Assembly: GCA_964010765.1 (NCBI GenBank)
Contig: CAXGMD010000040.1
Span: 1-30,990 of the forward strand
Source of the DNA: an uncultured bacterium
GTDB taxonomy: Bacteria > SAR324 > NAC60-12
Length of the DNA: 30,990 nt
Direction: 5' to 3'
Shown here: in pieces, positions 544 to 18,680 of the stretch
How the letters are laid out: each line of letters starts with the position of its first letter
How positions within the stretch are numbered: position 1 is the stretch's first letter
Made by a program: the position numbers and the translations under genes
The notes under the pieces: generated by a model
Told to the model about the DNA's origin: nothing
The model's database searches: none
What the model saw: the letters and a program-made list of their open reading frames with translations, nothing else

Positions 544-1725
544 ATGTCTCAAGAAATCCCAATTGAAGATTTATCTCAAGGTCTTTCTGCTATTGAAGTC
601 AAAAGATATAGCAGACATCTCAGTCTTTCTGAAGTTGGGCCAGAAGGGCAGCAAAAGCTCAAGAAAAGTAAGATTCTGATCGTTGGTGCTGGAGGTCTGG
701 GATGCCCTGTAGGACTTTATTTGGCTGCAGCAGGTATAGGTCAATTGGGGATAATTGATCATGATGTCGTCGAAATTTCTAATCTGCAAAGGCAGATTGG
801 CTATTCCGAAAAAAATATTGGGTTACCGAAAACTAAATCTTTGGCTGAGACTTTAACCAATATTAACCCTCAATTGAGAGTGGAACAGATTTCGGAAAAG
901 TTGCAGCACAACAATGCTCTTCAAATTGTTCAAAGGTACGATGTCATCGTGGACTGTTCTGATAATTTCCCCACTCGATATTTGGTTAATGATGCGGCGT
1001 TCTTCGCCAACAAGCCTTTGGTCTCTGCATCAGTACACAAATTTCAGGGGCAACTCACTGTATTTTGGCACAAATCAAAGGGAGGGTGTTATCGTTGTCT
1101 CTACCCTGTAACTTTACCTGAATCAATGGCTCCTACCTGAACGGAATCAGGAGTCCTGGGCGTGCTCCCAGGCACAATGGGTCTACTGCAGTCAACTGAG
1201 GTGCTGAAGTTGGTTTTAGGGATTGGGAGTGAGATGGTAGGTCAACTTTTGCTGTATGATGCCTTGGAAGTAGATTTTCGAAAGATACATGTTCCCAAAG
1301 AGAAAACTTGCCAGCTTTGTGGCGTAAATCCAACAATCAAAGCATGGTCGGATGCTGGGGAAGTCCCTGTGATTGAGGAAGTTGGATCTGACGAGAGAAA
1401 AAATAATTCTGATCAAGTTTCTGCCCATTGGTTGAGTGATGCACTACGAATTGGGAAGCAAATCAGGTTGGTTGATGTTCGAGAGCCTCATGAATGGGAT
1501 ATTTGCCGATTGAAGGGAGCCGAGCATCATCCGGTAAGCAAAATTCAAACAGATAAATTTTCTAAAGACTTAAAGACAATAATCGTCTTCTATTGCCATA
1601 GAGGTGTTCGATCTGAGAGGACTTTAAGGATTTTCCAAGAACTTGGCTATGAAAATTGTCGAAGTCTAATTGGAGGCATTGACGCTTGGGCTGAAGCAAT
1701 TGAATCAGAAATGCCCCGCTACTGA
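544..1725 (+). CDS. moeB: MoeB/ThiF-family adenylyltransferase fused to C-terminal rhodanese (MoeZ/MoeBR/Uba4-like), probable selenoprotein (TGA 1138-1140 read as Sec, residue 199 of 393)
   Basis: ORFs 508-1140 and 1162-1725 share a frame. Read-through gives RYSRHL, GAGGLG, SNLQRQ, DCSDNFPTRYLVND, CYRC, MAPT(TGA)TESGVLGVLPG, CQLC, then rhodanese DVREPHEW...FYCHRGVRS...GGIDAW. ATG 544 preferred over TTG 508. Confidence 0.9.
1153..1175 (+). promoter_or_regulatory. Candidate bacterial SECIS hairpin
   Basis: Perfect GC-rich stem CCTGGG (1155-1160) / CCCAGG (1167-1172) with loop CGTGCT containing a GT. Extendable by GT/AC around a bulged C. Loop begins 20 nt after the in-frame TGA. Confidence 0.65.
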
Positions 1726-2246: not shown

Positions 2247-3496
2247 TATACTTCGGGTTTGTTGAGGCTGAAATCTCGCTGCTTCGAATCTGATGGTATT
2301 TCTGCAGATTTTTCAGAAATTTTTATTCCAAGTTCCATATCATTTGATGAAATCAGATCAATTTCAACTTCAGATGTTTCAACTTCAGATTCCAAGGCTT
2401 CTGGTAAATCTGATTCGTTATCAGGTTCTGAGGTTGATTTATGAATTATTTCATCACTATAATCTCTGAGCAGAGGTTGCATGCCCTGAATTTGAGCCTG
2501 AAGTACTTCTGAGTTTTCTGAAACTGAGGTCAAAACTGGGGCGATTCTTTTAAGCCAGTTTTCTGTGAAATCATTAAGTGTTGAAAGATGTTCATTCGTT
2601 CTATCTTTCAGTTCTTCATCACCAGGATTAACATGAAGATTTGGTAATAATTCATCTAAACAATACTCTTCAACTTTAAGCAGAAGATCCTCCTGACTTT
2701 TTCGCAGTAGAGAAGAAAGAAGCATAATTGGAATAACGCTTACAAGAGCCAGAAATGTGGTATTGAAAGCGATAGAGAGACCACTTGTTACCCCACCCAG
2801 AGCGGATCTCATCTGGCCACCAATTGCAGCTGTATCCATACTGCGAACAAAGGTTGAAAACTCTCCCACTGACTGCCCAATACCAAAGACAGTTCCTATG
2901 AATCCAAGAATGGGAATTGCCCAAATGAGGACATTGATTAGGGTATATCCGTTCTGAAGCCTGTTGAAATCGATTTCTGCTTGGTAATTCAAGATTTGAT
3001 GCAACTCTTCTTTTTTGGGAACAACCCTCAGATAGTGAAGAATTCTGCGGACTCTTATGAAAAGAACGCTTACTTGAAAGCGCTTGATCCGTTCTTTTGC
3101 TAGATAAGTTCCGATCTGCTCAATCCTACTATCAACATCTTTGACAAATATTCCCTCAGATAGGGAATCAGTTAATTCTTTCTGGCGAAAGGCTAAGTAA
3201 GTTTTGAGTTGGAGCCGATGATGTCTCCATTTGAAGAAAACCAGAAATATGGCCCAGCAACTCAGGCCGAAAATTAGTTCTGATATACGACCATCTAGAA
3301 GTTCATGAATGTAGTCGCTTTTGATCTGAGGAAGAGGAAAAACTAGATAGAAAACTGAGGTGAAAATTAGTGCAAGCACCAGTGATCTTAGAAGATCTAT
3401 CAGATCTGAGGAGGAGCGTTCGGCTAGATAAGTCCCACAAATTTGGCAGTAGATCGCTTCATCAGGGTTGTTCCGGGAACAATTCAAACATTTCAT
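2246..3496 (-). CDS. MotA/TolQ/ExbB proton-channel family protein with N-terminal zinc ribbon and acidic C-terminal tail
   Basis: CxxC-x10-CxxC N-terminus (CLNC...CQIC). Channel motifs WAIPILGFIGTVFGI and GLSIAFNTTFLAL. Confidence 0.85.
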   Translation of the reverse strand: MKCLNCSRNNPDEAIYCQICGTYLAERSSSDLIDLLRSLVLALIFTSVFYLVFPLPQIKSDYIHELLDGRISELIFGLSCWAIFLVFFKWRHHRLQLKTYLAFRQKELTDSLSEGIFVKDVDSRIEQIGTYLAKERIKRFQVSVLFIRVRRILHYLRVVPKKEELHQILNYQAEIDFNRLQNGYTLINVLIWAIPILGFIGTVFGIGQSVGEFSTFVRSMDTAAIGGQMRSALGGVTSGLSIAFNTTFLALVSVIPIMLLSSLLRKSQEDLLLKVEEYCLDELLPNLHVNPGDEELKDRTNEHLSTLNDFTENWLKRIAPVLTSVSENSEVLQAQIQGMQPLLRDYSDEIIHKSTSEPDNESDLPEALESEVETSEVEIDLISSNDMELGIKISEKSAEIPSDSKQRDFSLNKPEV

Positions 3497-3807
3497 CCAG
3501 TTCCTTTATTTTTCAATTGCTGCAGATATTCCTCCCATTCCAGTGGAAGTAAATAGCTTTTCTGGGTATTGCAGCTTTTGCAACTAGGAACGAGATTTGA
3601 CTTGGTGGTGAATCCTCCACGAGCTAGTGGAATAAGGTGGTCCATCGTTAACTCCTTTGCTGGAAAGGATTGCTCACAATAGTAGCATTTGTTTGATGCA
3701 CGACGATTTTTCCACCACTGTGATTTTCGAATTTCCTGAGCTTTTCTTCTTTCCTTTTGAATATGTTCTTCATCCGCAGGCTCAAACCAAATCTCTAATT
3801 TTTTCAA
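3493..3807 (-). CDS. Small HNH endonuclease-family protein
   Basis: CYYC...LTMDHLIPLARGG...NLVPSCKSCN. TTG start at 3807 overlaps the tolB stop and follows GGAGGGAGG; the track's longer start is 3837. Confidence 0.85.
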   Translation of the reverse strand: MKKLEIWFEPADEEHIQKERRKAQEIRKSQWWKNRRASNKCYYCEQSFPAKELTMDHLIPLARGGFTTKSNLVPSCKSCNTQKSYLLPLEWEEYLQQLKNKGTG

Positions 3808-5066
3808 GATCCTCCCTCCAAGACCCTTCGACTCCAAGAGGCCCCTGTCTCTTCAAATCCTCTAGGAGTAGTTGTCAGTCGCCTCACCCCTGTTCCGTCA
3901 ACAAACATCACATATAACTTAAAGGCACCGGTACGGTCTGCTGCAAAGACTATTTGTCGGCCATCCGGAGACCACGTTGGTTTTTCTGAGTCGTATCTTC
4001 CAAAGGTTAGCTGTTGGTAATCATCACCAAATGGATCCATCAGAAATATTTGATTTCTACCATTTATACTTCGAGAGAAGACAATGCGCGTACCATCCGG
4101 AGACCAGACGGGGTCACTATTGCTGTAGCCATCAAAAGTCAGGCGGTAAATCGATCCAGATTCCATATCTCTCATGTAAATCTGTTCTCTACCAGTTCGG
4201 TCAGAAACAAAAACAAGGTTTCGGTTATCAGGGGAAAGCGTAGGGGCTGTATCAATGCTGCTGTGCCGTGTGAGACGTTGGGTTTTGCCTGATTCGATAT
4301 CAATGTCGTAAAGATCTACATTGGCATTCACACTGATGGTTGCGACGACCCGGTTCCCATTGCTATACCAGGTACCACCACTCGTTACACCATCTTCACC
4401 TCTTCTAAGTTCATCCGCTTTATTGTTGAGCACATTGTGCATCCAGATGGTTGTACCTCTGTTTCCAACCGTTGTGTAAAGCAACTTGGTACTGTCAGGA
4501 GACCATCTGGGCAATAAACTGATATCCTTGTTGTTGGTCAGACTCCTCAACCCCATTCCATGAGTGTTCGTCAGTGCAATAATTTTTTTTCGACCAGGTT
4601 GTTTGAGAGTAAAAGCGATGGACGTCCCGAGGATCCCCTCCACTCCGGTCAATCTTTCGGTAATCTGGTTTACACCACGAATGATATCATCCTCACTAAT
4701 TTCATTTTCCTTGATCAGTAGCATCTCTCCCAATAAAACATTCCCTTGCAGATCTGCCACAGCGAATTCCAGCCCATTTTCACGTTGATTAAGCTGGATT
4801 TGCATTTCAGCTTCACGTTTGGCGTGACAATAATCATAAGTTGAATTTATAAGGGTAAAGACACCACTCCAGCAAAAGTTCCTCTCAATATTTCTGGCCC
4901 ATCTTTTCGCAAGAGTTGTATCGAGGTTTGGATCTACATTTAGCTCTGCAGAAAATCTGGAAAAGTCTATACCGCTGACGACGACTTCCTCACTGGAATA
5001 GGTCTGCGCAAGTGTCGGGGAGAGTGATCCCAAAAAGATTAGGATCGAAAACATCCAATGTTTCAT
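3804..5066 (-). CDS. tolB: TolB-like periplasmic beta-propeller protein
   Basis: Signal peptide, repeated PD40 motifs (PRWSPD, PTLSPD, PVWSPDG, PTWSPDG), FVSDRTG, adjacent to a tolA-like gene. Confidence 0.85.
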   Translation of the reverse strand: MKHWMFSILIFLGSLSPTLAQTYSSEEVVVSGIDFSRFSAELNVDPNLDTTLAKRWARNIERNFCWSGVFTLINSTYDYCHAKREAEMQIQLNQRENGLEFAVADLQGNVLLGEMLLIKENEISEDDIIRGVNQITERLTGVEGILGTSIAFTLKQPGRKKIIALTNTHGMGLRSLTNNKDISLLPRWSPDSTKLLYTTVGNRGTTIWMHNVLNNKADELRRGEDGVTSGGTWYSNGNRVVATISVNANVDLYDIDIESGKTQRLTRHSSIDTAPTLSPDNRNLVFVSDRTGREQIYMRDMESGSIYRLTFDGYSNSDPVWSPDGTRIVFSRSINGRNQIFLMDPFGDDYQQLTFGRYDSEKPTWSPDGRQIVFAADRTGAFKLYVMFVDGTGVRRLTTTPRGFEETGASWSRRVLEGGS

Positions 5067-5078
5067 CTCTTTCCTTCC

Positions 5079-6695
5079 TCAGGGTTGAATTCTGATAGTC
5101 ACGATGTAAGGTGGATTTTCACCTAATTTTTGGGGGAGTCTCGGAAACTTGATAGCCTTCATACCGGTCATCACAACCAAATCGAATTGTTTAGATCCGC
5201 TACTTTCCTTGATTCGGTAAGCACTCACTCTTCCATCCAATTCAATTTGGATCTCAATTGCAACTGAGAGTTTTTTGTCAAACTGTGGACCTGCATTGAT
5301 CTGTCCACGTAACTGCTCATAAAGCAAAGAATTGTACTGTCGCTCTACCAATCTGCGTTTGTTTTCTTGTTCCTTAAGTTTCCTTAATAGTAGTGTATCC
5401 TGAACTTGAATTCCTATGATTGCTGTTTCAGTGAGTGTGGGTGGTGGATTTTTTGGGTCAAAAATCGAAGGTTGATCCTTGACAGATGGTCCATTGGTGA
5501 CACCAGCAAATAAGTTGTCAGTCGGCGGTGCTGGAGGTGGCGGTGCTGGAGGTGGCGTATTTCTTAGCTTTTTTGGGTTCAGTTCAATTGCTTTAGGTCC
5601 ATCGTTGGGAGTGCCAGGCACAATAGCAGGTGGAATAGGACTTTCTTCAGGAGTAGGTAACTTGTTATTTGAATTTTTAGGTTCAGGTGGTAGATCCACA
5701 ACTTCTGGTTTAGTAGGCAGATTGGGTGTTGGCACTGTTAGATCCTGCGTAACCCGATCAGGCAAAATTGGCTTCTGATCACGTTCCAGTTTAGCTACTG
5801 ATTGGCGGAGCACAGGAATTTCTATCTCCTCAGGTTTAGCCCGGTATTCCGCAATAGGTGCAGTGACGGCACTGAAGTCACTTTGAGGTATCTCAATTTT
5901 GGAGGTGTCTCTTAAATCCTGTTCTAATCGAGGGCTAGTCAGTACTTGAGGTGAGTTTTGGTCTGCCAGATTGACTTTGAGTTCGGGTAATCTTTGATTT
6001 AATTCTGGGATTGATTGTTGAGTTTCTAAGCGTTTTTGCTGGGGGGCTTCAACCCTGGCTAGATTTGTTCTAGGTAGAGAATTAACGGGCTTTTTTGCAT
6101 TAATTCGAGGCAGCGAATCTTGTACGCTTTCTTTAACAATTGGAAGTTTTGGGGAGTCTATCTGACTTTTTGGTAATTTTAGCTTGGGAACTGAAATCTT
6201 CGGATCTGGCAGAGTCGGAACTTCTGATACTTTTTTGGGACGCTGTACCTTAACATCAGGAATTGCCGCAGTCTTGGAAATTTGTGGAGCACTCAACGAA
6301 GGTATTTTAGGTACATTGATTTTCGGCTCCAGGCTAGGTTTTTCAGGCTTTTGAGAGGTGATTGTTGGTACTTTGACTTCAGGTGCTAAAGGTATTGGGC
6401 GCTCAGTGATCGTTGGTCTTTCTGGTAAATCGTTGATCGACGTAGGGGGACGTGGTGGATCGAGGGGGTTCAGTGCAGCTTGTAAAGAAATCGGTTCAAT
6501 AGAAGGTGGCAAGATGGGTTTTGGGGGAGGTGGAGGTACTGCCCGAACCAGTTGAATACTAACACGCGCAGGTTCTTGTTTGGCTTTAGGCTTTTTTTCA
6601 AGTTGTTCTACCATCGCTAAGCCAAAAACTGCTGTTGCATGGGCGACACACATCAAAACAAACCAATTAGTGAAAGCTTTATCTGAATTTTCCAT
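5079..6695 (-). CDS. TolA/TonB-like energy transducer with long Pro-rich linker
   Basis: N-terminal TM helix containing His (CVAHATAV), long Pro/Lys-rich linker, C-terminal IEIQIELDGRV...ESSGSKQFD...FPRLP domain. Confidence 0.75.
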   Translation of the reverse strand: MENSDKAFTNWFVLMCVAHATAVFGLAMVEQLEKKPKAKQEPARVSIQLVRAVPPPPPKPILPPSIEPISLQAALNPLDPPRPPTSINDLPERPTITERPIPLAPEVKVPTITSQKPEKPSLEPKINVPKIPSLSAPQISKTAAIPDVKVQRPKKVSEVPTLPDPKISVPKLKLPKSQIDSPKLPIVKESVQDSLPRINAKKPVNSLPRTNLARVEAPQQKRLETQQSIPELNQRLPELKVNLADQNSPQVLTSPRLEQDLRDTSKIEIPQSDFSAVTAPIAEYRAKPEEIEIPVLRQSVAKLERDQKPILPDRVTQDLTVPTPNLPTKPEVVDLPPEPKNSNNKLPTPEESPIPPAIVPGTPNDGPKAIELNPKKLRNTPPPAPPPPAPPTDNLFAGVTNGPSVKDQPSIFDPKNPPPTLTETAIIGIQVQDTLLLRKLKEQENKRRLVERQYNSLLYEQLRGQINAGPQFDKKLSVAIEIQIELDGRVSAYRIKESSGSKQFDLVVMTGMKAIKFPRLPQKLGENPPYIVTIRIQP

Positions 6696-10313: not shown

Positions 10314-10670
10314 GTGCAGATTCCGTTCCGTGCATTATTTATCTGTAAAGTAATCCTAGTCATTTTGATTGGACTGATCTTCCCTCAGTTTGGTTTTTTT
10401 GTAACAGAGGCCAAGGCGCAAATGGAAGGCAATTATTCTCAACCAGCATGCCAGGAATTTTTGGAACCAACAAATCCTGCTGAATTGAAACTGTTGAGAG
10501 AGTGTGCAAAACAACAGCGAGACACAAGAGTTAAAGGGAGAAAGGAGGAAATAAGAGTGCTTAGAACCGCTTCAGCTTCGTTTTTGAGCGAATCTCTGGG
10601 AGGCCCTTCTGGAGAGATAATGCCAGTTGCTAAACCAGATGACGCTAATGCTACAGCAGCCAGTCAGTGA
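10314..10670 (+). CDS. Hypothetical exported protein
   Basis: Track start 10218 overlaps the divergent gene, so in-frame GTG 10314 is more plausible. Hydrophobic stretch ending AKA-Q, and two Cys in the mature part. Confidence 0.55.
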   Translation: MQIPFRALFICKVILVILIGLIFPQFGFFVTEAKAQMEGNYSQPACQEFLEPTNPAELKLLRECAKQQRDTRVKGRKEEIRVLRTASASFLSESLGGPSGEIMPVAKPDDANATAASQ

Positions 10671-16595: not shown

Positions 16596-18680
16596 TCAAT
16601 TATTCAAGATTTGCATAATAAGACTTTTTAATGATGGGAGATCATAAACTGGAGCATGGCATAATTGTCCTTGGCATACATGAATCAATAATTTCTCATC
16701 TGAAGATGCTCTGCCCTCTGCAATTGGAACCTGTTGGCTAACAGGATCTGGATCATCGGAAGGAATAAATGCCACGACAACTTCAGGTAAAAAAGTCTGT
16801 CTCAACCACTGAAGAACCTCCTTCGTTTCTGATTTTGATTCTTCGCCAGAAACAACTACCTCAATACCACCTTTTCGAGCCCAAATCAGGGCGCTCAACA
16901 TAGCTGAAAAATTTACCCCTGCTTGGTGCAGATGAGGTGAAAAGCTATGAAGGATTCTCTCTGCGTCGCTCAGAAGCCCTAAGCCCATTCCAAAGCTAGC
17001 TAATTTTAGAAAAAGCAATGCTGTTGAGGTATTGCCTGAAGGTTCGACTCCATCATGTCCATCAGCTTTCCTGACTAGAACTTCTTCTGCATCAAACCCC
17101 GTTTCATAGTAAGCCCCGTCAGGATTTAAGAAGAGTCGATTGATTTCATTAGCCCAGTGATGAGCCTTTAATATATACTGGGGTTCATAATTCCAAGCGT
17201 AGATATCCAAACACGCTAACCCAAGTTGCGCGTAGTCACTTAGATAAGCAGGAAAATTTGCGTCCCCATCTCTGTAGCGGCGTAATAGGCGCCCATCTTC
17301 AGTAATGAGATTTTCTTCAATGAAAGCCAAGGCGTTGGTTGCTGTTATTCCATATTCATCATGGTCCAGAATTCTTGCAGCTTGTGCAAACGAGCTGATC
17401 ATCAAAGCATTCCAAGAGACTAGGACTTTATCATCTTTTAAAGGGCGAATTCGTTGAGCTCGGACATCAAGTAATTTTCTACGTGCTTTAATGATTATCG
17501 ATTGCCATTCATTTTCATCCAGTCCCAATTGTTCGCTAAAAGCGTTTGATGGTTGGGAAACATTCAGAATATTTTTTCCTTCGAAGTTTCCCTCGTGTGT
17601 TACATTCCAATAATTTGCAAGGATATCAGAATAGTCCTTTTGGACAGTCTTTTTGAATTCATCCGGGGACCACAAATAGAAGAGTCCCTCATGTCCCTCG
17701 CTGTCAGCATCTTCTGCAGAGCAAAAGCCGCCATCCTCAGCCAACATATCTCGTTTAATGTAATGAAAAATATCTTCAGCTATTTCTTTGTGGAATGGAT
17801 TTTTGGTCACTTGGAAGCATTCTAAAGCTACTTGAGCGAATAGTGCGTTGTCGTAAAGCATTTTCTCAAAGTGAGGTACAAGCCAGCGATAATCTGTGCT
17901 GTAACGACAGAGGCCCCCACCCACCTGGTCATAAATTCCTCCATTTCGCATCCTTTCCAATGTAAGTTCAACCATATAAAGATCAGAAGGATTTCCAGTT
18001 CTCAGATGATACCTCAACAGCAGTTGCAGACCCATGCTCGGTGGAAATTTATTAGGTCTTTGGAGTGCAAATCCGCCATCTTCTTGATCAAAAACCTGCC
18101 GATACGCTTGTACGGTTTTTTCAACACAATCCCATTGTGGTAAGGGTTCATCCAAAGGTTCAGGCGCTGGAGCTCTTCTTAAGTAGGTGGTTAGTTGTTC
18201 TGCTGTGTCATGAATTTTTTCTTTTTCCTCATGCCAATAGAATTGGAGACTTTCCAAAACTTGACGAAAACTTTGGCGCCCATACATGGGCTTGGGAGGA
18301 AAATATGTTCCACCAGTAAAGGGCCTACCATCTGGGGTAGCAAACATATTTAGAGGCCATCCTCCTTGTTCACCAAGTGCATGCAGAGCATCCATGAAAA
18401 CCTGATCGATATCTGGTCGCTCTTCTCTGTCAACTTTTATCGCAACAAAATTTCTATTCAAATAATCAGCGGTTTCTCTGTCTTCAAAGGATTCCCTTTC
18501 CATCACATGGCACCAATGGCAGGTTGCGTAACCAATACTAACTAGAATGAGTTTTTGTTCTTTCCGTGCTTTGTCAAAAGCTTCTTGGGACCAAGGAAAC
18601 CAATCCACAGGATTATGAGCGTGCTGAAGTAGGTATGGACTCTTCTGATCAATTAATCGATTGGTATTAGGAGACAACAT
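16596..18680 (-). CDS. YyaL/SSP411 (SPATA20)-family thioredoxin domain-containing protein
   Basis: NRL...[62 protein letters not shown]. Confidence 0.95.

What the first reader, a model, noticed from the sequence alone, without database searches (positions are those of the whole stretch)
544..1725. Hidden selenoprotein: E1-like MoeB-rhodanese fusion with UGA at the conserved active-site Cys
Seen: one continuous frame broken only by TGA 1138-1140 in MAPT*TESGVLGVLPG. All other motifs on both sides are intact (GxGGxG, both Zn CxxC, rhodanese CHRGVRS), and TGA acts as a normal stop elsewhere in the window. Known: MoeB/ThiF/Uba4/TtuC carry P-x-C-x-E-x-G-V here, and this Cys forms acyl-disulfide or thioester links to the ubiquitin-like sulfur carrier in ThiF, Uba4 and TtuC. 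Inference: the TGA encodes Sec, giving a 393-aa enzyme with Sec199. Standard gene callers would split it or call it a pseudogene. From recall (unverified), Sec-containing MoeB sequences were listed in marine metagenome selenoproteome surveys, so the family may not be new, but I know of no biochemical characterisation.
Basis: partly seen in the sequence, partly recalled or inferred. Interest (0 to 1): 0.9.

Follow-up and report, generated by a model that had tools for sequence, protein, structure and literature searches.

The report
Selenocysteine MoeZ-type sulfur-carrier activating enzyme
The apparent stop codon inside this marine bacterium's sulfur-carrier-activating enzyme gene almost certainly encodes selenocysteine at a catalytic cysteine position, a correct call that adds a well-documented member to a selenoprotein family predicted in 2005 but never studied at the bench.

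Summary
Frame 544-1725 (+) has one internal TGA, at 1138-1140. Read through, it gives a 393-aa ThiF/MoeB domain fused to a rhodanese domain, with every motif intact.

The TGA very probably encodes selenocysteine (Sec):
- The genome has tRNA-Sec, selA, selB and a Sec-containing selD.
- 52 of 56 orthologues in one order of the phylum (SAR324-like) carry TGA at the same column. The other 4, and all 120 listed outside homologues, carry Cys.
- A 6-bp hairpin 14 nt downstream (1155-1172) has frozen synonymous sites in the Sec forms only.
- Both halves of the gene are under purifying selection.

Sec199 aligns with E. coli MoeB Cys187, ThiF Cys184 and the crossover-loop cysteine of Uba4, which forms a thioester in yeast.

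The family is not new. "MoeB" selenoproteins were listed in the Sargasso Sea (2005) and GOS (2008) surveys, and this scan has already found the family in soil Rokubacteria. I found no biochemical study.

New here:
- The Sec form is fixed across a whole order.
- In 22 relatives the gene sits directly behind a CysO/SAMP-like carrier gene.
- The window's own genus lacks that carrier, which leaves MoaD as the likely client.

Public gene calls split the gene in two.

The parts
544..1725 (+). Whole gene: 393-aa MoeZ/MOCS3/Uba4-type enzyme (ThiF/MoeB adenylation domain plus C-terminal rhodanese) with Sec199; terminal stop TGA 1723-1725
   Evidence: The ATG 544 start is the one used by public gene calls: the exact 198-aa piece is in the collection, the TTG-508 version is not.
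607..1314 (+). ThiF/MoeB E1-like adenylation domain (residues 22-257). It contains the nucleotide loop GAGGLG (685-702) and the two zinc CxxC motifs (1087-1098, 1309-1320).
   Evidence: Pfam PF00899, 270.7 bits, E 1e-80; motif positions; alignment to E. coli MoeB 1JW9 and ThiF 1ZUD
1138..1140 (+). UGA codon read as selenocysteine (Sec199), at the crossover-loop cysteine of E1-like enzymes
   Evidence: TGA at this column in 52 of 56 orthologues, TGC/TGT in the other 4. Aligns with MoeB Cys187, ThiF Cys184 and the Uba4 crossover-loop Cys.
1155..1172 (+). SECIS hairpin: stem 1155-1160 (CCUGGG), loop 1161-1166 (CGUGCU), stem 1167-1172 (CCCAGG). It starts 14 nt after the UGA and lies inside the codons for VLGVLPG.
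   Evidence: All six pairs form in 49 of 52 Sec forms, 0 of 5 Cys forms of the phylum and 1 of 33 Cys homologues elsewhere (G017 counted by hand). The loop is identical in 51 of 52. Codon entropy at residues 204-209 is 0-0.97 bits, against a mean of 1.76 over 80 comparable columns. Core hairpin -9.2 to -10.5 kcal/mol.
1420..1695 (+). Rhodanese domain (residues 293-384) with the active-site loop CHRGVRS (Cys351; 1594-1614)
   Evidence: Pfam PF00581, 62.9 bits; motif position; dN/dS 0.15-0.28 downstream of the TGA

Best explanation
Positions 544-1725 are one intact gene for a selenoenzyme. It is an E1-like adenylyltransferase of the MoeZ/MOCS3/Uba4 architecture (ThiF/MoeB domain plus C-terminal rhodanese). 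Its crossover-loop cysteine is replaced by selenocysteine.

Decoding. UGA 1138-1140 is read by Sec-tRNA(Sec), which SelB delivers after binding the small hairpin at 1155-1172. That hairpin is written into the codons of the conserved VLGVLPG motif.

Inferred chemistry, by analogy with yeast Uba4:
1. The enzyme adenylates the C-terminal glycine of a ubiquitin-fold sulfur carrier.
2. Sec199 attacks the acyl-adenylate and forms an acyl-selenoester.
3. The carrier passes to a persulfide on Cys351 of the rhodanese domain.
4. The carrier is released as a thiocarboxylate.
Sec would act as a better nucleophile and leaving group than Cys.

Client. In this organism the client is most likely MoaD, for molybdenum cofactor synthesis. 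In sister genera the same enzyme is also encoded in an operon with a CysO/SAMP-like carrier, which is linked to CysM-like or MetY-like enzymes and so to thiocarboxylate-dependent cysteine or homocysteine synthesis.

Shown here by computation: conserved UGA, SECIS signature, Sec machinery, purifying selection, gene contexts. Inferred: actual Sec insertion, the selenoester step, the identity of the client.
For: Sec machinery in the same genome:
- tRNA-Sec at 60.1 bits, anticodon TCA
- selA at 514.8 bits
- selB at 366.7 bits
- selD at 378.4 bits, itself carrying one TGA

Conservation:
- Of 88 genomes of the phylum, 56 (families f1 and f2) have a full-length orthologue. 52 carry TGA and 4 carry Cys, all at one column.
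- The stop is never TAA or TAG.

SECIS:
- The 20 nt around the hairpin are almost invariant in proteins only 44-50% identical.
- The five lowest codon entropies among 80 conserved degenerate columns are residues 204-208. Residue 209 ties for sixth.
- Cys forms use other synonymous codons.
- The genome's own selD has a hairpin of like size and distance: +13 there, +17 here.

Translation beyond the UGA:
- dN/dS is 0.15-0.28 downstream against 0.13-0.17 upstream, in 4 congeners.
- One Pfam ThiF domain spans the TGA.

Evolution: the 55 orthologues in the tree form one clade (SH-aLRT 99), and only 2 state changes are needed.

Residue role: the column equals MoeB C187 and ThiF C184. In yeast Uba4 the crossover-loop Cys225 forms the thioester needed for thiocarboxylation (PMC6007339, passages read).

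Client:
- The genome shows only two ThiS-family carriers. ThiS sits in a thiS-thiG-thiE-thiF cluster with its own Cys-type ThiF. The other is an 81-aa MoaD ending in GG.
- moaA, mobBA and moeA are present.
- No other MoeB-like gene turned up.
- 74 of the 120 closest Cys homologues are fused to a ThiS/MoaD-family domain.
- A CysO/SAMP-like carrier gene lies 30-45 nt upstream of the Sec gene in 22 relatives.
Against: - No direct evidence of selenium in the protein, and none is possible with these tools.
- The hairpin is short (6 bp). The 81-nt region around it folds no better than shuffles: z = +0.74, with 156 of 200 shuffles folding at least as well. The case therefore rests on conservation, not stability.
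- No pair shows a change on both sides. Only one-sided changes occur (U-A/U-G, C-G/U-G), and 3 of 52 Sec forms carry one mismatch.
- Two of the six pairs are forced by the amino-acid motif alone.
- Four orthologues use Cys although 3 of them keep selA, so Sec is not indispensable.
- No carrier gene is next to the gene in this window.
- MoaE was not found in this 92%-complete genome, though three congeners have it.
- RNA-library contigs that bridge the TGA do not prove transcription, let alone read-through.
- Rfam gives nothing.
Confidence: 0.88

Rival explanations
1. The enzyme does contain Sec, but in this organism its main client is not MoaD. It might serve ThiS or an undetected carrier, or do carrier-independent sulfur or selenium trafficking through the Sec and rhodanese-Cys pair.
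For: The gene is never adjacent to moaD in any genome I looked at. Its operon partner in 22 relatives is a CysO/SAMP-like carrier, not MoaD. MoaE was not found in this genome. From recall, MoeZ-type enzymes of Mycobacterium and Thermus serve several carriers.
Against: The CysO/SAMP-like carrier was found in 0 of 9 genomes of the window's genus and 0 of 3 of genus g2. tblastn of it against this genome gave no hit at E<=10. The ThiS-family HMM finds only the MoaD-like gene in 5 of 5 genomes of these two genera. ThiS has its own ThiF in its operon. moaA, mobBA and moeA are present, and no other MoeB candidate exists.
Confidence: 0.3
2. UGA 1138-1140 is recoded, but to cysteine or another standard residue rather than selenocysteine. 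Routes could be a mischarged tRNA-Sec, a Cys-inserting tRNA-Sec-like tRNA, or near-cognate read-through.
For: Homologues have Cys here, and Cys forms are viable within the clade. From recall, Cys-inserting selC-like tRNAs have been described in some bacteria.
Against: The genome has the full Sec-synthesis set, including selA and selD, so tRNA-Sec should carry Sec. Only one tRNA-Sec-like gene with anticodon TCA was seen; the second Rfam hit over the cut-off is tRNA-Cys GCA and tRNA-Leu TAA by ARAGORN. A plain TGC/TGT codon would serve for Cys without the cost of a SECIS kept in 52 genomes.
Confidence: 0.04
3. The gene is truly split. Translation ends at UGA and restarts (GTG 1162), giving a 198-aa N-terminal piece and a 187-aa C-terminal piece that assemble into one enzyme.
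For: Public gene callers annotate exactly these two pieces. A GTG lies at 1162.
Against: The cut would fall in the middle of one ThiF domain, exactly on the codon that is Cys in every homologue. It would delete 7 conserved residues (TESGVLG). The stop is always TGA, never TAA or TAG, in 52 genomes. The GTG lies inside the conserved hairpin. The synonymous-site freeze is what a SECIS predicts and a restart site does not.
Confidence: 0.03
4. The TGA is a nonsense mutation or sequencing error, so this is a pseudogene.
For: A single in-frame stop is what a fresh pseudogene looks like.
Against: The same codon occurs in 52 species-level genomes. It is unchanged in independent metagenome assemblies. 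dN/dS downstream is 0.15-0.28. There are no other stops or frameshifts.
Confidence: 0.01

Closest known systems
Predicted 'molybdopterin biosynthesis MoeB' selenoprotein family of marine metagenomes: Zhang, Fomenko & Gladyshev 2005, PMC1088965; GOS 2008, PMC2398784; listed in reviews PMC9312934 (2022) and PMC13188914 (2026). Passages and table rows read.
   Same: A ThiF/MoeB-family protein with one in-frame UGA paired with Cys in homologues and a bacterial SECIS directly downstream. Marine origin. GOS files the family under the MoeZ/MoeB domain (pfam05237).
   Different: The papers give counts only (11 and 19 sequences). In the text I could read they give no position of the Sec, no taxon, no client and no mechanism; figures are not held. 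Here the lineage (SAR324-like order, 52 of 56 genomes), the exact residue, the SECIS and the gene contexts are worked out.
Yeast Uba4 / human MOCS3 (E1-like domain plus rhodanese), PMC6007339; structure 6YUB
   Same: Same domain order. The Sec column is the crossover-loop cysteine (Cys225 in yeast), which forms a thioester with Urm1 and hands it to the rhodanese persulfide (Cys397). Chaetomium Uba4 aligns over residues 12-225, E 1e-53.
   Different: Uba4 uses Cys and its client is Urm1 for tRNA thiolation and urmylation. Here Sec replaces Cys and the clients are bacterial MoaD/CysO-type carriers.
E. coli MoeB (1JW9) and ThiF (1ZUD)
   Same: Adenylation domain, zinc CxxC pairs, and the conserved Cys (MoeB 187, ThiF 184) at the Sec column.
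   Different: These have no rhodanese domain. From recall, MoeB Cys187 is dispensable in E. coli, whereas ThiF Cys184 forms an acyl-disulfide with ThiS.
Mycobacterial MoeZ with CysO-CysM, and Wolinella HcyS-HcyF-MetY thiocarboxylate-dependent Cys/Met synthesis (both recalled; no paper read)
   Same: A MoeB-rhodanese E1 that serves a CysO-like carrier encoded next to a PLP-dependent sulfhydrylase. Relatives here show carrier-moeZ-X-MetY-like and CysM-like-carrier arrangements.
   Different: Those E1s use Cys. The NCBIfam MoeZ equivalog cut-off is not reached (376.4 against 647). The window's own genus lacks the CysO-like carrier.
Sec-containing rhodanese-MoeB genes of soil Rokubacteria, found earlier by this scan (e1-1178258, e1-2511176, e1-5090788)
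   Same: UGA at the catalytic Cys column of a MoeB fused to rhodanese, with a conserved hairpin after it. Gene calls split it in two.
   Different: By those notes the rhodanese domain is N-terminal there, and the phylum is different. I did not compare sequences, so one origin or two is open.

Membership tests
ThiF/MoeB/HesA E1-like adenylyltransferases (Pfam PF00899) | Profile match over the curated cut-off across the whole domain | tested here: met
   270.7 bits against a cut-off of 28.1; residues 22-257 on profile positions 1-237 of 238
ThiF/MoeB/HesA E1-like adenylyltransferases (Pfam PF00899) | Nucleotide-binding GxGxxG loop, two zinc CxxC motifs, conserved crossover-loop Cys | tested here: met
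   GAGGLG 48-53, CYRC 182-185, CQLC 256-259. These align with MoeB C172/C175 and C244/C247 (counted by hand). The crossover-loop position is occupied by Sec199.
MoeZ / MOCS3 / Uba4-type MoeB-rhodanese fusion | C-terminal rhodanese domain with an active-site Cys loop | tested here: met
   PF00581 at 62.9 bits, residues 293-384; CHRGVRS 351-357
MoeZ / MOCS3 / Uba4-type MoeB-rhodanese fusion | NCBIfam equivalog scores (MoeZ NF005902; MoeB NF006444, NF005646) | tested here: not met
   376.4 against cut-off 647, 407.5 against 449, and 343.9 against 633. Only the subfamily model NF004281 passes, 297.1 against 266. So this is a MoeB/MoeZ-like enzyme by architecture, not a curated equivalog.
Bacterial selenoprotein | In-frame UGA aligned with Cys in homologues and conserved across species | tested here: met
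   52 of 56 orthologues TGA and 4 Cys. Cys in 39 of 50 non-TGA homologues from other phyla (no comparable motif found in the other 11) and in 120 of 120 database homologues.
Bacterial selenoprotein | SECIS stem-loop just downstream of the UGA, with a small apical loop containing G | tested here: met
   6-bp stem and 6-nt loop CGUGCU, starting 14 nt after the UGA. Kept in 49 of 52 Sec forms, with frozen synonymous sites. [quoted passage not shown] There is no double-sided covariation, and the overall fold z-score is not significant.
Bacterial selenoprotein | selA, selB, selC and selD in the genome | tested here: met
   All except the tRNA are over curated cut-offs; the tRNA is over Rfam's gathering score.
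Bacterial selenoprotein | Selenium shown in the protein | not testable with these tools
   Needs 75Se labelling or mass spectrometry.
MoeB selenoprotein family of Zhang et al. 2005 | Sec at the same residue as in the published family | tested here: inconclusive
   The text I read gives no position, and figures and sequences are not held. The GOS assignment to pfam05237 (MoeZ/MoeB domain) is compatible with it.
MoaD-activating enzyme (MoeB function) | A MoaD carrier and the rest of the molybdenum cofactor pathway in the genome, and no other candidate E1 | tested here: inconclusive
   MoaD-like 81 aa ending in GG (TIGR01682 at 46.4 against cut-off 66.15). moaA, mobBA and moeA present. MoaE not found here but found in 3 congeners. 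The only other ThiF-like gene is in the thi cluster. Binding and activity were not tested.

The most novel reading that the evidence does not exclude
In a whole order of abundant SAR324-like ocean bacteria, the only E1 for MoaD and for CysO/HcyS-type carriers is a selenoenzyme that works through an acyl-selenoester. If so, molybdenum cofactor synthesis depends on selenium supply, and in most genera so does protein-thiocarboxylate-dependent cysteine/homocysteine synthesis. In addition, the VLGVLPG motif that follows the catalytic Cys in E1-like enzymes is 'SECIS-ready'. Two of the six stem pairs are fixed by the amino acids, and the other four each need only one synonymous choice. That would explain how Cys-to-Sec switches could arise more than once in this family (here, and in Rokubacteria with the opposite domain order).
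Probability: 0.3. Interest if true: 0.55.

Novelty: new member of a known kind. Interest (0 to 1): 0.33.

Why it matters
The finding corrects a systematic annotation error. The exact 198-aa and 187-aa pieces sit on 69 and 61 public contigs, in clusters of 184 and 97 members.

It also offers a concrete natural test case for what selenium does at the thioester-forming cysteine of an E1-like enzyme. That question can now be put to the bench with a defined enzyme, a defined SECIS and candidate carriers. The mechanistic role of this cysteine is itself debated for Uba4/MOCS3 (PMC6007339).

Ecologically, it ties molybdenum cofactor synthesis to selenium in a widespread deep-ocean lineage, and in sister genera it ties thiocarboxylate-based sulfur assimilation to selenium as well.

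It does not reveal a new kind of system.

Tried and rejected
1. A selenium-specific link between selD and the carrier. moaD lies 200 nt after selD in 8 of 9 genomes of the window's genus, and 2.7 kb away in the ninth. In 0 of the 21 other genomes where both genes were found are they on the same contig. MoaE-X-selD occurs in 3 of the 6 selD neighbourhoods I fetched (G010, G014, G022). I judge this a lineage-specific arrangement, not evidence that the enzyme handles selenium.

2. Thermodynamic support for the hairpin. The 81-nt fold is no better than shuffles, so I dropped stability as evidence.

3. Covariation. There are no double-sided compensatory changes.

4. Rfam with permissive thresholds on 1100-1260 gave only two chance-level hits, E 2.3 and 2.8.

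5. Window neighbours give no hint. Upstream is a ChaN-like gene, downstream an unknown 168-aa ORF, and there is no carrier, JAMM or PLP gene.

6. Loss of the Sec trait as the reason for the 4 Cys forms. selA is present in 3 of the 4; G012 had none.

7. Literature on biochemistry. 'moeb + selenoprotein + selenocysteine' gave 12 papers, none on enzyme work judging by their titles and my passages. 'moez + rhodanese + selenocysteine' gave 0. 'SAR324 + selenoprotein' gave 1 paper, which holds no 'MoeB'. Subscription journals are not searched.

8. Earlier scan notes by sequence and on selD/MoaD: nothing.

9. RNA-library contigs. One bridges the TGA, but contigs cannot show transcription or read-through, and gaps in their cover mean nothing.

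10. I did not run structure or complex prediction. Alignment to solved MoeB, ThiF and Uba4 structures already places the residue, and E1-carrier pairs are a poor use of that job.
Full report
**Observation.** The + strand frame from ATG 544 to TGA 1723-1725 is open except for one TGA at 1138-1140, in the context MAPT*TESGVLGVLPG. Read with TGA=U it gives a 393-residue protein with U199.
- Pfam finds a single ThiF domain, residues 22-257 (270.7 bits), which spans the TGA, and a rhodanese domain, residues 293-384 (62.9 bits).
- NCBIfam's best models are MoeB and MoeZ. Only the MoeB subfamily model NF004281 passes its cut-off; the MoeZ and MoeB equivalogs do not.
- TGA ends 14 of the 26 long ORFs of the window, so this is not a genome that reads TGA as sense throughout.

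**Is the TGA real?** Thirteen DNA runs from seven studies hold 98-100% of the sampled words of the stretch.
- A contig of run X13 covers 544-1603 with one difference, at 802.
- A contig of X4 (possibly the source) covers everything with no difference.
- A 321-nt contig from an RNA library (X14) bridges 1047-1367.
- No difference is listed at 1138-1140 or in 1155-1172 in any of the four runs.
- Contigs cannot prove transcription.

**Selenocysteine machinery.** The window's genome has 3.86 Mb in 266 contigs and is 92% complete. It carries:
- tRNA-Sec (Rfam 60.1 bits; ARAGORN anticodon TCA)
- selA (514.8 bits)
- selB (366.7 bits)
- selD (378.4 bits) with its own in-frame TGA

The nearest named records for this gene are 'Deltaproteobacteria bacterium' MAGs (88-89% identity) and a 'SAR324 cluster bacterium' MAG (45%, also TGA).

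**Conservation of the codon.** All 88 genomes of the phylum were searched.
- 56, all in families f1 and f2 of one order, have a full-length orthologue: 52 with one TGA and 4 without.
- After fetching all of them, the TGA sits at the same alignment column in all 52. The four others (G012, G015, G016, G017) have TGT or TGC there.
- G024 has the TGA, but its 3' part is out of frame in the fetched stretch, so I left it out of the entropy and tree analyses.
- G011 has an extra Cys-type paralogue (42% identity). G042 has a second, partial TGA copy.
- In family f7, 7 of 19 genomes have only a short (~280 aa) MoeB without rhodanese and without TGA.

Outside the phylum:
- Of 53 genome-contig loci, 3 are TGA (the SAR324-type ones) and 39 have Cys at the column. 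In 11 distant or short ones my motif search found nothing comparable.
- All 120 listed full-length database homologues (at most 49% identical) have Cys.

**The SECIS.** Fourteen nucleotides after the UGA lies a hairpin: CCUGGG (1155-1160), loop CGUGCU (1161-1166), CCCAGG (1167-1172). It is written in the codons of V204-G210.
- In 52 Sec forms the loop is identical in 51, and all six pairs form in 49.
- The variation seen is one-sided: U-A/U-G at one pair (20 against 32), and C-G/U-G.
- None of the 5 Cys forms in the phylum forms all six pairs (4; G017 counted by hand from the string). Only 1 of 33 Cys homologues from other phyla with the same amino-acid motif does.
- Across 51 Sec forms, 80 alignment columns have a conserved 4- or 6-fold degenerate residue. 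Mean codon entropy there is 1.76 bits.
- The five lowest values (0 to 0.53) are residues 204-208, and residue 209 (0.97) ties for sixth. This freeze of synonymous sites, in proteins that are otherwise only 44-50% identical, is the strongest sign of an RNA element.
- The genome's selD has a hairpin of similar size and position (+13, loop GGUC, -9.6 kcal/mol) against +17 and -9.2 here.

Against this: the wider 81-nt region folds no better than shuffles (z = +0.74), there is no double-sided covariation, and Rfam has no match.

**The downstream half is translated.** In four congeners (83-90% identity), dN/dS is 0.15-0.28 downstream of the TGA and 0.13-0.17 upstream. Public gene callers nevertheless split the gene. 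The exact 198-aa piece is on 69 contigs (cluster of 184, named 'HesA/MoeB/ThiF family protein'), and the exact 187-aa piece is on 61 contigs (cluster of 97, 'rhodanese-like domain-containing protein').

**Which residue.** On the HMMER alignments to solved structures, U199 falls on E. coli MoeB Cys187, on ThiF Cys184, and on the Cys of QTSCGEAG in Chaetomium Uba4 (positions counted by hand and checked against the known zinc cysteines). In yeast Uba4 the corresponding crossover-loop Cys225 forms a thioester with Urm1. That thioester is required for thiocarboxylation and hands the carrier to the persulfide on the rhodanese Cys397 (PMC6007339, passages read). By analogy I propose:
1. adenylation of the carrier;
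2. an acyl-selenoester on Sec199;
3. transfer to Cys351-persulfide;
4. release of the thiocarboxylate.

This is inference.

**Evolution.** I built a tree of 83 rows: 51 Sec, 5 Cys of the phylum, and 27 of the 50 non-TGA loci as outgroup (full-length ones only).
- It puts the 55 orthologues in one clade (SH-aLRT 99).
- The four Cys forms are one subclade (100), sister (94) to the Sec forms of G010, G013, G014, G022 and G023.
- Two state changes suffice.
- Together with the identical hairpin, this fits one Cys-to-Sec switch at the base and one reversion. The base of the clade is unresolved, however.
- Three of the four Cys-form genomes keep selA.

**Which carrier.** In the window itself nothing helps. 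Elsewhere in the genome the ThiS-family HMM finds two carriers.
- One is ThiS, in a thiO-thiS-thiG-thiE-thiF cluster. Its ThiF paralogue (37% identical) has Cys at the column and no zinc CxxC.
- The other is an 81-aa MoaD-like protein ending in GG, just after selD.
- moaA, mobBA and moeA are present.
- MoaE was not found here but is present in three congeners and in seven other genomes of the order.
- In other genera this MoaD gene sits beside moaA/mobBA/moeA, or beside pheT-dgkA.

A second carrier type appears in relatives. It is 92 aa and ends GG plus one residue. NCBIfam scores it as SAMP1 at 58.3 against cut-off 60.
- It is found in 47 of 63 other genomes of f1 and f2.
- It is found in 0 of 9 genomes of the window's genus and 0 of 3 of genus g2.
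- tblastn against this genome finds nothing.
- The HMM finds only MoaD in 5 of 5 genomes of those two genera.
- In 22 genomes (g11 17 of 17, g4 3 of 3, g12 2 of 2) this carrier gene lies 30-45 nt upstream of the Sec gene on the same strand (places).
- In G057 the operon continues with a 93-aa ORF and a MetY-like PLP enzyme.
- Where the carrier is elsewhere, it follows a CysM/CysK-like PLP enzyme in 4 of the 5 loci examined.
- 74 of the 120 closest Cys homologues are fused to such a carrier domain.

So the orthogroup is the E1 of a CysO/HcyS-type thiocarboxylate pathway and probably of MoaD too. In the window's organism MoaD is the remaining candidate. I put about 0.65 on MoaD.

**What is known.** 'Molybdopterin biosynthesis MoeB protein' is one of the 15 selenoprotein families newly reported from the Sargasso Sea (11 sequences; PMC1088965). 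It recurs in GOS (19 Sec against 2,262 Cys; PMC2398784) and in review tables of 2022 and 2026, which cite only the 2005 paper. My three searches found no biochemical work, but subscription journals are outside the library. This scan found the same family before on other DNA (soil Rokubacteria).

**Verdict.** This is a correct and very well supported selenoprotein call, and a new member of a known kind. It adds modest new detail: order-wide fixation, a SECIS written into the conserved motif, and the carrier context.

Noticed in passing
own genome contig C141, 3695-5055 (loci L019, L042); L111, L112, L114: The Sec-containing selD is followed 200 nt later by moaD in 8 of 9 genomes of the window's genus. 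In G010, G014 and G022 the order is MoaE, an unknown gene, selD, then an ankyrin-repeat gene. Selenophosphate synthetase thus sits beside molybdopterin-synthase subunits in four genera, in two different arrangements.
   Followed up: partly
L112:4984-5982 (-), L114:5064-6023 (-), L111:3334-4560 (+): A conserved 320-409-aa protein lies between MoaE and selD and has no Pfam hit (E<=1e-5) or NCBIfam hit (E<=0.01).
   Followed up: no
own genome contig C103, 1861-5421: A thiO-thiS-thiG-thiE-thiF cluster. Its 335-aa ThiF has a C-terminal rhodanese-like tail, Cys at the crossover column, and no zinc CxxC motifs. The same genome therefore runs one Cys-type and one Sec-type E1.
   Followed up: partly
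L169 (G057:C2:503000-513500) 2761-6541 (-); L164-L166, L168: In relatives, a CysO/SAMP-like carrier (ending GG plus one residue) sits in operons with Sec-moeZ and a MetY-like enzyme, or behind a CysM-like enzyme with a class-V aminotransferase nearby. This looks like protein-thiocarboxylate-dependent Cys/homocysteine synthesis in SAR324-like bacteria. No JAMM peptidase was looked for.
   Followed up: partly
window 10668-10670 (+), 16596-16598 (-), 5079-5081 (-): Three further TGAs separate long ORFs that lie in the same frame: an unknown ORF and DUF218, DUF255 thioredoxin-like and PilZ, TonB-like and TolB-like. They look like ordinary ends of neighbouring genes, but I did not test them for recoding.
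   Followed up: no
window 3496-3837 (-): A 114-aa HNH endonuclease ORF sits between a MotA/ExbB-family gene and a TolB-like beta-propeller gene, where an ExbD/TolR-type gene would be expected.
   Followed up: no
G013 (single-contig genome): It has the TGA form of the enzyme and selA, but no selD match at E<=1e-40. This stands as 'not found with this query' and is unexplained.
   Followed up: no
window 544-1725 in runs X14-X19: Six metatranscriptome libraries labelled salt marsh (5 studies) hold about half of the stretch's words. Their contigs are 90-99% alike, so close relatives of this gene are present there, possibly as RNA.
   Followed up: partly
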